NCBI RefSeq assembly: GCF_963921235.1
Contig: NC_086097.1
Coordinates: 145,764,001-145,828,000 of the forward strand
Source of the DNA: Mobula hypostoma
Lineage: Eukaryota
DNA length: 64,000 bases
Direction: 5' to 3'
Each line of letters starts with the position of its first letter. Within the stretch, counting starts at the first letter, position 1. The position numbers and the translations under genes were made by a program. Positions 21,328 through 21,957 of the stretch are shown piece by piece. The notes beneath the pieces are model-generated. The model worked only from the letters and a program-made list of their open reading frames with translations, was not told where the DNA came from and did not search any database.

Positions 21328-21957
21328 TAAACACGAGGAAATCTGCAGATGCTGGAGATTCATACAACACATACAAAAAGTGCTGGTGAATGCAGCAGGT
21401 CTGGCAGCATCTATAGGAAGAGGTACAGTCGACGTTTCGGGCCCAGACCCTTCGTCAGGACTAACTGAAAGAAGAGATAGTAAGAGATTTGAAAGAGGGA
21501 GGGGGATGGGGAGGGGGAGATCCGAAATGATAGGAGAAGACAGGAGGGGGAAGGATGGAGCCAAGAGCTGGACAGGTGATTGGCAAAAGGGATACGAGGC
21601 TGGAGAAGGGAGAGGACCATGGGATGGGAGGCCTAGGGAGAAAGAAAGGGGGAGGAGAGCCCAGACGATGGGTAAGGTGTTATAGTGAGAGGGACAGAGG
21701 GAGAAAAAAAGAAAAAAGGGGAAAAGAAAAAAAAGAAAAATAAATAAATAAATAAGGGATGGGGTAGAAAGGGGAGGTGGGGTATTAATGGAAGTTAGAG
21801 AAGTCAATGTTAATGCCATCAGGTTGGAGGCTACCCAGACGGAATATAAGGTGTTGTTCCTCCAACCTGAGTGTGGCTTCATCTTGACAGTAGAGGAGGC
21901 CGTGGATAGACATGTCAGAATGTGAATGGGGCATGGAATTAAAATGTGTGGCCACCT
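21328..21957 (-). mobile_element. Penelope-like element 3' fragment (GIY-YIG remnant and pLTR) with intact hammerhead
   Basis: Same family as 6924-7735; hammerhead at 21427-21462. Confidence 0.8.
21427..21462 (-). ncRNA. Minimal type I hammerhead ribozyme (best-preserved copy)
   Basis: 5'-AGUC CUGACGA A GGGUCUGGGCCC GAAA C GUC GACU-3': stem I AGUC/GACU, intact core, GC-rich stem II, and stem III reduced to the palindrome ACGU. Predicted cut between 21431 and 21430. Confidence 0.75.

What the first reader, a model, noticed from the sequence alone, without database searches (positions are those of the whole stretch)
21427..21462. Dispersed family of minimal hammerhead ribozymes carried in Penelope-like termini
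Seen: AGTC-CTGAYGA-A-GGGnnnnnnCCC-GAAA-C-GTC-GACT recurs about a dozen times. Copies are at 4094-4129(-), 6806-6843(+), ~6986-7020(-), 8205-8233+11662-11670(+), ~11904-11932(-), ~20770-20806(+), 21427-21462(-), ~25944-26000, ~51661-51696, 58087-58122(+) and ~58490-58515(-). It has the hammerhead core (CUGAnGA, GAAA, GUC cleavage triplet), stem I AGUC/GACU and a G-C stem II. Stem III is only the self-complementary ACGU with no loop. Established: PLEs and retrozymes carry minimal type I hammerheads with palindromic stem III thought to cleave as dimers. Inference: this is a self-cleaving RNA module of an abundant PLE family; many deviations in other copies are CpG-type transitions, consistent with decay after insertion.
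Basis: partly seen in the sequence, partly recalled or inferred. Interest (0 to 1): 0.85.

Follow-up and report, generated by a model that had tools for sequence, protein, structure and literature searches.

The report
Penelope hammerhead motifs, hugely amplified
The 36 bases are a complete copy of the small, likely self-cutting "minimal hammerhead" RNA motif that Penelope-like jumping genes are already known to carry, here repeated an estimated 400,000 times in a ray-like fish genome, so the catch is correct but the kind is not new.

Summary
Confirmed. All 11 listed copies exist; only 21427-21462(-) is fully intact. The motif is a minimal type I hammerhead (stem I AGUC/GACU, CUGANGA, extra A9.1, stem II GGGU/GCCC, palindromic ACGU) about 300 nt behind the GIY-YIG end of a Neptune-type Penelope-like element. 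An intact young element (1,016-aa ORF, 99%-identical pLTRs) carries it in both repeats. The genome holds 48,565 exact copies of two forms; roughly 420,000 by extrapolation. Across subfamilies the motif is as conserved as coding sequence, and relatives at about 48% protein identity show covarying stems. This is the arrangement published in 2014. Extras: the youngest subfamilies have a G·U closing pair (also published elsewhere); an older subfamily spread with an A6C core; copy 5' ends pile up at the first base of stem I (1,842 versus 153 twenty bases upstream), far less at the cut site (487). Most inserted copies therefore likely came from uncut RNA that begins at the ribozyme. Cleavage itself was not tested. 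This scan has noted the family and the 5'-end pile-up before, elsewhere in this genome and in shark genomes.

The parts
21427..21462 (-). Intact minimal type I hammerhead motif; predicted cut between 21431 and 21430; G10.1-C11.1 form
21785..21955 (-). 3' end of the Penelope GIY-YIG endonuclease frame (5'-truncated; ends ...LEEQHLIFRLGSLQPDGINIDFSNFH, stop at 21787-21785)
   Evidence: 82.5% DNA identity to intact element L091 over 21328-21955
21463..21784 (-). Pyrimidine-rich 3' UTR part of the pLTR, ending in initiator-like TCAGTT / TTAGTCC that overlaps the first base of stem I
21328..21426 (-). Region behind the ribozyme with the two family 3' ends (about 35 nt apart, the PLE 'tail')
3996..4447 (-). 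Truncated copy with motif at 4094-4129 (closing pair of stem I broken)
6807..6906 (+). Short older-subfamily copy (motif 6807-6842, damaged)
6927..11770 (.). Head-to-head inverted insertion with target duplication AGAATTTACA: left arm motif 6987-7022(-), right arm motif 8205-8233 + 11662-11669(+), split by a LINE at 8234-11661
11898..11933 (-). Degenerate motif copy
17250..17435 (.). Fold-back mini-insertion, both arms starting inside the motif, target duplication ATCCTTTAAATGGC
20318..20885 (+). Old-subfamily copy, motif 20770-20805 (G12>A), 67% identical to L091
25883..26095 (.). Fold-back mini-insertion: motif 25944-25979(-) plus partial partner 25979-25999(+), target duplication CCCATCTCTAACCC
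51658..51784 (+). Short copy, motif 51660-51695 (core broken)
57949..58212 (+). Rearranged copy, motif 58087-58122 (G12>T)
58478..58513 (-). Very degenerate motif copy (24/36)

Best explanation
This is the minimal hammerhead motif in the pseudo-LTR of a very abundant Neptune-type Penelope-like retrotransposon; it likely cuts only slowly, as a dimer or with protein help, and the window copy is a passive left-over of a truncated insertion. Shown: the motif lies about 300 nt behind the endonuclease stop and, in full elements, also 170 nt ahead of the start codon; copies end 60-100 nt behind the cut site at two fixed places; copy 5' ends peak at the first base of stem I. Inferred: the element's RNA often begins at or just before stem I (an initiator consensus overlaps it); reverse transcription starts in the tail behind a ribozyme, so priming at the 3' repeat gives long copies and priming at the 5' repeat gives 100-135 nt ribozyme-plus-tail copies; templates are mostly uncut. 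Two motifs pair through their palindromic ACGU to form stem III; a single motif is predicted to fold into an inactive rod. Cutting is then a kept but occasional step in the element's RNA life (processing or turnover), not a requirement for each insertion.
For: Intact element L091: 5' pLTR 1953-3004, ORF 3040-6090 (1,016 aa with DKG, YIDD, CX4CxxC linker, VIY-YIG, CxxC), 3' pLTR 5463-6516 at 99% identity, motif in both, target duplication of about 14 bp. Copy number: 7,093 and 41,472 exact 32-mers, reversed controls 0; 146 hits in 1.2 Mb. Selection on master elements: oldest subfamily (10 copies) against L091: coding end 0.81, UTR 0.54, 36 nt upstream 0.51, motif 0.81, 36 nt downstream 0.68 (copies picked by the motif); picked instead by the endonuclease end, 10 of 14 old sampled copies keep the motif at >=25/36 against 0-3 of 14 for five flanking 36-mers and 1 of 14 for the tail. 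Relatives in metagenome contigs: 15 sense and 2 antisense descriptor hits, 0 in reversed sequence, 80 loci; 9 of 25 loci with enough downstream DNA have it 84-143 nt behind the stop; 40 of 112 cells with changes on both sides, 0 of 500 shuffles as high (rows were chosen by a descriptor that demands 3 pairs per stem). 5' ends genome-wide: 1,842 at the first base of stem I, 697 two bases on, 453 four bases before, 153 twenty before, 487 at the cut site, 146 and 242 four bases either side of it; in the even sample plus window 18 of 57 young copies start within 2855-2880 and 0 of 57 at 2900-2904. Monomer fold: inactive rod -12.9 against -8.9 kcal/mol for the open core. Literature: PMC4209133 (same anatomy, weak dimer cleavage), PMC11167929 (anole element: ribozyme protein-assisted, not needed for insertion in vitro, priming internal).
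Against: No cleavage or RNA data were obtained. The cut site has 2-3 times more 5' ends than its neighbours (487 against 146 and 242), so some templates may be cut; but 15 of 20 inspected loci are fold-back junctions and 7 of 20 use GAC(T) microhomology, leaving 4 plain insertions. The seven patterns differ in CpG content and in the subfamilies they admit, so the ratios are rough; 2 of 20 inspected stem-I-edge matches were another subfamily, not true 5' ends. 13 of 29 copies that hold the start-codon region extend well upstream of the motif, which a transcript starting at stem I does not explain alone. Loop II is as constant as the stems among subfamilies, which hints at a second constraint. 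16 of 25 eligible relatives had no descriptor hit. Folding z-scores are weak (-1.2 to -1.7).
Confidence: 0.72

Rival explanations
1. Cut-and-circle model: the two motifs of one transcript cut as an intramolecular dimer, the 3.5-kb unit is ligated into a circle, and reverse transcription round the circle makes the partial tandems. Cleavage would then be central to mobility.
For: Two motifs 3,512 nt apart in L091; 5' pLTRs vary from about 140 bp to over 1 kb with a seamless tail-to-5'UTR joint; few 5' ends at the cut site, as expected of a circle; proposed in PMC4209133.
Against: A circle has no end at stem I, yet 5' ends peak there about 12-fold over the upstream control. An A6C subfamily spread widely (13 of 20 copies of one flank class, 0 of 45 young copies), and A6C strongly lowers Mg2+ cleavage in other hammerheads (PMC7151607, PMC3088659). 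Ribozyme mutants did not affect insertion in vitro in PMC11167929.
Confidence: 0.14
2. The 36 bases are now kept mainly as a DNA promoter or protein-binding site (initiator at stem I, ACGT as part of a downstream element); the ribozyme is ancestral and nearly dead in this lineage.
For: YYANWYY match centred on the first base of stem I and TCAGTY four bases upstream; Drosophila Penelope has an internal Inr/DPE promoter with RGACGTGY (PMC2377424); loop II also constant; master changes at A6 and 11.1 would each weaken cutting.
Against: Relatives keep every core base while both stems covary, which is an RNA-structure signature; G·U at 10.1-11.1 occurs in 8 of the 56 published representative motifs; the ACGT matches RGACGTGY at only 5 of 8 places.
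Confidence: 0.11
3. Some inserted copies, such as 21427-21462, act on host RNA; this one lies in the sense direction about 9 kb behind the last exon of a CSRNP-family gene.
For: 25 of 146 sampled copies keep the whole motif, some 70,000 genome-wide by extrapolation; CSRNP_N match at 30479-31513(-).
Against: The copy is an ordinary family member with no intact partner in the window; decay among copies hits core CpGs freely; no transcript evidence.
Confidence: 0.03

Closest known systems
Minimal hammerheads (min-HHR) in pLTRs of metazoan Penelope-like elements (Cervera and De la Pena 2014, PMC4209133)
   Same: Type I topology, 4-5 bp stem I, extra base between A9 and G10.1, loop-less palindromic stem III, U-rich 5' flank, one copy per pLTR, many solo copies. 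The published Acropora digitifera Neptune motif is letter-identical to the one in related locus L356.
   Different: No cartilaginous fish among the 56 representatives or in Table S1; copy number here (48,565 exact) exceeds the 4,000-9,000 given for coelacanth and frog; one subfamily has an A6C core.
Neptune-clade EN+ Penelope-like elements (Arkhipova 2006, as summarised in Craig et al. 2021, PMC8557442)
   Same: C-terminal GIY-YIG endonuclease, DKG motif, CX2-5CxxC linker, partial tandems, inverted 5'-truncated partner, 30-40 bp tail.
   Different: Clade not tested by a tree; very many 100-135 nt motif-plus-tail and fold-back copies.
PAc, Poseidon element of the green anole (Frangieh et al. 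2024, PMC11167929)
   Same: Two priming sites behind the ribozyme that define the tail; uncut RNA as main template.
   Different: In PAc the ORF starts inside stem II; here the start codon lies 138 nt behind the cut site and the tail is non-coding.
Non-LTR retrozymes (PMC7229834 listing only; bioRxiv 10.64898/2026.07.22.740005, part 1 and passages)
   Same: Type I hammerheads derived from PLE pLTRs; one chondrichthyan genome was positive in the preprint.
   Different: Window copies are dispersed or inverted, not head-to-tail tandem units.

Membership tests
PLE minimal hammerhead | Core CUGANGA, GAAA, UH | tested here: met
   Intact at 21427-21462; 25 of 146 sampled copies fully intact
PLE minimal hammerhead | Extra base between 9 and 10.1; G10.1-C11.1 | tested here: met
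   Met by the window copy; the youngest subfamilies have G·U (38 of 38 and 58 of 60 copies), a variant seen in 8 of 56 published motifs
PLE minimal hammerhead | Palindromic 15.2-16.2, no loop 3 | tested here: met
   ACGU; invariant in 14 of 14 aligned motifs
PLE minimal hammerhead | Stems I and II covary | tested here: met
   Across relatives: 7 of 8 pairs with changes on both sides (rows descriptor-selected); nearly absent within the genome
PLE minimal hammerhead | Lies in both pLTRs of a PLE | tested here: met
   L091, L097, L100, L106
PLE minimal hammerhead | Self-cleaves as a dimer | not testable with these tools
   Needs in vitro assay
EN+ Penelope-like element | One ORF with RT and C-terminal GIY-YIG domain | tested here: met
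   1,016 aa; RVT_1 E 5e-5, below the curated cut-off; motifs read directly; homologues carry PF00078, PF26215 and some PF01541
EN+ Penelope-like element | pLTRs, inverted truncated partner, 30-40 bp tail | tested here: met
   3' ends 26 of 57 at 2960-2979 and 26 of 57 at 2995-3004
Neptune clade | CX2-5CxxC linker between RT and EN | tested here: met
   CKRNKCYTC at 883; shared with Nematis
Neptune clade | RT phylogeny | not tested
   No named reference set; indirect only: 48% identity to L356, whose motif equals the published Neptune one
Rfam hammerhead families | Covariance-model match | tested here: not met
   No hammerhead hit at E<=5; inferred reason: missing stem III
Non-LTR retrozyme | Head-to-tail tandem units each with a motif | tested here: not met
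   Window copies are solo or inverted
Pol III (tRNA-type) SINE | A and B boxes | tested here: not met
   No match in L091 2856-3010

The most novel reading that the evidence does not exclude
The element's transcript starts on the first base of the hammerhead, so the 36 bases are both core promoter and ribozyme. Cutting removes the capped leader only when two transcripts meet, which makes the ribozyme a copy-number-sensing brake on the transposon; subfamilies that weakened it (A6C, then G·U at 10.1-11.1 with a firmer inactive fold) spread to tens of thousands of copies.
Probability: 0.15. Interest if true: 0.7.

Novelty: new member of a known kind. Interest (0 to 1): 0.3.

Why it matters
The kind is known, so the motif alone matters little. 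What the ribozyme does for Penelope-like elements is still open, and this genome is a large natural record: tens of thousands of exact copies, intact young elements, a dated series of subfamilies with two weakening changes, and thousands of insertion ends. These ends argue that most templates were uncut and began at the ribozyme's edge, which makes the open question testable with 5'-end sequencing and three natural variants.

Tried and rejected
Rfam scan: no hammerhead family; the microRNA hits fall on or near fold-back insertions and lie far below their gathering scores. Pfam has no GIY-YIG hit on the ORF and the local library lacks PF26215. Covariation among copies of this genome: 0-3 double changes per stem pair in 146 copies, 6 at 10.1-11.1, uninformative because copies decay neutrally. 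A general descriptor found 26 motifs in 1.2 Mb, all of this family or close kin, 0 in reversed sequence: no second family for comparison. A shifted stem II (A9.1 pairing with U11.1) is predicted at about 1%. A 3' splice site before the motif was considered (branch-point-like sequence, pyrimidine tract, AG): the 5'-end peak fits neither AG, and no GT-AG joint was listed in four contig sets, which cannot show absence. Expression: no RNA holder listed; the four runs laid are contigs of guessed type and show no ends. U11.1 as a novelty: rejected, 8 of 56 published motifs have it. Luense et al. 2017 and Nelson and Uhlenbeck 2008 were not held. Supplement file 1 of PMC4209133 and the preprint's supplements could not be seen and may list cartilaginous fish.

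Full report
Observation. An ungapped scan finds all 11 listed places. Only 21427-21462(-) is whole; the other ten carry core or stem damage, and one is split by a LINE. Read as RNA: stem I 5' strand AGUC, core CUGACGA, an extra A, stem II GGGU/GCCC round a four-base loop, GAAA, CG, UC, cut, GACU. Stem III is only the palindrome ACGU. Chance is excluded: 146 hits at >=25/36 in 1.2 Mb of evenly spaced samples (120 stretches), 0 in the reversed sequence. Rfam has no hammerhead hit at E<=5. About half of all deviations are CpG transitions.

What carries it. Upstream of the window copy lies the end of a Penelope endonuclease frame. A genome search with the RT part of a related copy returned 150 scored places with long open frames; of 20 fetched, L091 is an intact element: 5' pLTR 1953-3004, a 1,016-aa ORF, 3' pLTR 5463-6516 at 99% identity, the motif in both repeats, and a target duplication of about 14 bp. 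The protein has DKG, YIDD, a CX4CxxC linker, VIY-YIG and CxxC, which fits Neptune or Nematis as described in PMC8557442 (passages). No tree was built. The four best named homologues come from rays and a shark (69-91% identity), so the host is a ray-like cartilaginous fish. Copies occur as truncated 3' ends, head-to-head inverted pairs, partial tandems and tiny fold-backs, all known PLE layouts except for their sheer number.

Numbers. Exact 32-mers: 7,093 with C11.1 and 41,472 with U11.1, controls 0. Extrapolating 122 hits per Mb gives about 420,000 recognisable copies; 25 of 146 are fully intact.

Is the motif under selection? Not among inserted copies, where CpGs in the core decay freely. It is among master elements. 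Sorting copies by their flanks gives five classes in which the commonest letter changes at only three motif positions (N7, A6, 11.1), apart from near-even CpG-decay splits in the oldest class (57 of 355 copies unclassed). Against L091 the oldest class scores 0.81 in the coding end, 0.54 in the UTR and 0.81 in the motif (10 copies). Picking copies by the endonuclease end removes the selection bias: 10 of 14 old sampled copies keep the motif at >=25/36, against 0-3 of 14 for flanking 36-mers. In 80 metagenome loci with related proteins (40-60% identity) a descriptor gives 15 sense, 2 antisense and 0 control hits; 9 of 25 loci with enough downstream DNA have the motif 84-143 nt behind the stop, 16 do not. 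Aligning 12 distinct relatives with 2 host motifs leaves the core and ACGU invariant, while 7 of 8 stem pairs change on both sides (40 of 112 cells; 0 of 500 shuffles; slid controls 1-6 cells). The descriptor demanded three pairs per stem, so the share paired is partly built in; the variety of pair types is not.

Two weakening variants. The two youngest classes have G·U at 10.1-11.1 (38 of 38, 58 of 60), which costs about 2 kcal/mol. This is not new: 8 of the 56 motifs in Figure S3 of PMC4209133 have it (my count). An older class has A6C (13 of 20; in the even sample 12 copies, 7 of 13 in that class, 5 of 55 other old copies, 0 of 45 young). A>C is rare at other A columns, so this was a master change. 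A6C strongly lowers Mg2+ cleavage in other hammerheads (PMC7151607 and PMC3088659, passages). A partner with A6 could still have rescued cutting.

Where copies begin and end (L091 numbering: stem I starts at 2870, cut at 2901/2902). 3' ends fall at two places 60-100 nt behind the cut site (26 and 26 of 57), the tail that PMC11167929 traces to two priming sites (parts 1-2 of 4). So the 3' ribozyme of a template was uncut. 5' ends: 18 of 57 within 2855-2880, 7 in 2881-2899, 0 in 2900-2904, 3 in 2905-2914, 29 further upstream (four of the 18 are alignment overshoots into a fold-back arm). Genome-wide patterns of 27 fixed letters after three non-matching ones give 153 (2850), 453 (2866), 1,842 (2870), 697 (2872), 146 (2898), 487 (2902) and 242 (2906). 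Of 20 loci at 2870, 18 are true 5' ends, 5 of them solo insertions, 2 with a visible target duplication. Of 20 at 2902, 15 are fold-back junctions, 7 show GAC(T) microhomology and 4 are plain. The patterns are not equally sensitive, so ratios are rough. A vertebrate initiator consensus (recalled, YYANWYY) is centred on 2870, and Drosophila Penelope has an internal Inr/DPE promoter (PMC2377424, part 1 and passages). I infer that the RNA often starts at stem I. Against this, 13 of 29 copies holding the start-codon region reach well upstream; these need read-through, template jumps or a circle.

How it most likely works. Shown: anatomy, conservation, covariation, insertion ends. Inferred: a monomer is trapped in a rod in which GACG pairs with CGUC (-12.9 against -8.9 kcal/mol; z only -1.6); two motifs pair through ACGU and cut slowly, perhaps with the element's protein; cutting is kept by selection but is not needed for each insertion. 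This agrees with weak dimer cleavage in PMC4209133 (parts 1-2 of 4), the review PMC6765202 (passages) and the anole result that ribozyme mutants insert normally in vitro. The window copy is a 630-bp remnant with no intact partner nearby.

Novelty. The kind was described in 2014. Searches for a cartilaginous-fish account found none directly; a 2026 preprint reports tandem retrozymes in one chondrichthyan genome (part 1 of 5 and passages). Searches on transcription start against cut site found nothing on the 5'-end pile-up, but the library lacks most subscription papers and Luense et al. 2017 was seen by title and review summary only. This scan's own notes already hold the family (64 notes fit 'hammerhead' in this genome, 8 shown; 5 shown) and the pile-up (2 notes); my counts up to one search were made before I read them. 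No note matched the A6C words. Verdict: new member of a known kind, interest 0.3.

Noticed in passing
window 8234-11661 (-): Near-complete CR1/L2-type LINE (936-aa frame with APE endonuclease and RT, GDSL/OSK-like ORF1 piece, CATAGAA-type tail) inserted exactly inside the ACGT palindrome of a hammerhead motif, with AC on both sides.
   Followed up: partly
window 30479-31513 (-): Last exon of a CSRNP-family gene (CSRNP_N, E 1e-21); the intact motif lies about 9 kb downstream in the same direction.
   Followed up: no
window 17250-17435, 25883-26095; L137, L156, L183: Tiny fold-back insertions whose two arms both begin in or at the motif, flanked by 14-bp target duplications in the two window cases.
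   Followed up: partly
L091 2846-2871 and related copies: Branch-point-like TACTAAC/TACTCAC, pyrimidine tract and AG directly before stem I, like a 3' splice site; in Drosophila Penelope an intron ends at the same place.
   Followed up: partly
one search hits P0001, P0003, P0102: PLE protein pieces are annotated as isoforms of host genes in ray and skate records, suggesting exonisation or annotation chimeras.
   Followed up: no
G000:C2:157816706-157817355 and C2:12242900-12243219: Short tandem runs of the start-codon region (310-bp spacing) and of the motif (145-bp spacing), possible retrozyme-like units.
   Followed up: no
L241, L246, L247, L273, L274: Junctions ending in (G)ACGA before the first base, as if reverse transcriptase slipped to the AG of the core after reaching a template end.
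   Followed up: no
window 45648-46399: Old internal RT fragment of the same PLE family (71-78% to L091), without its 3' end.
   Followed up: no
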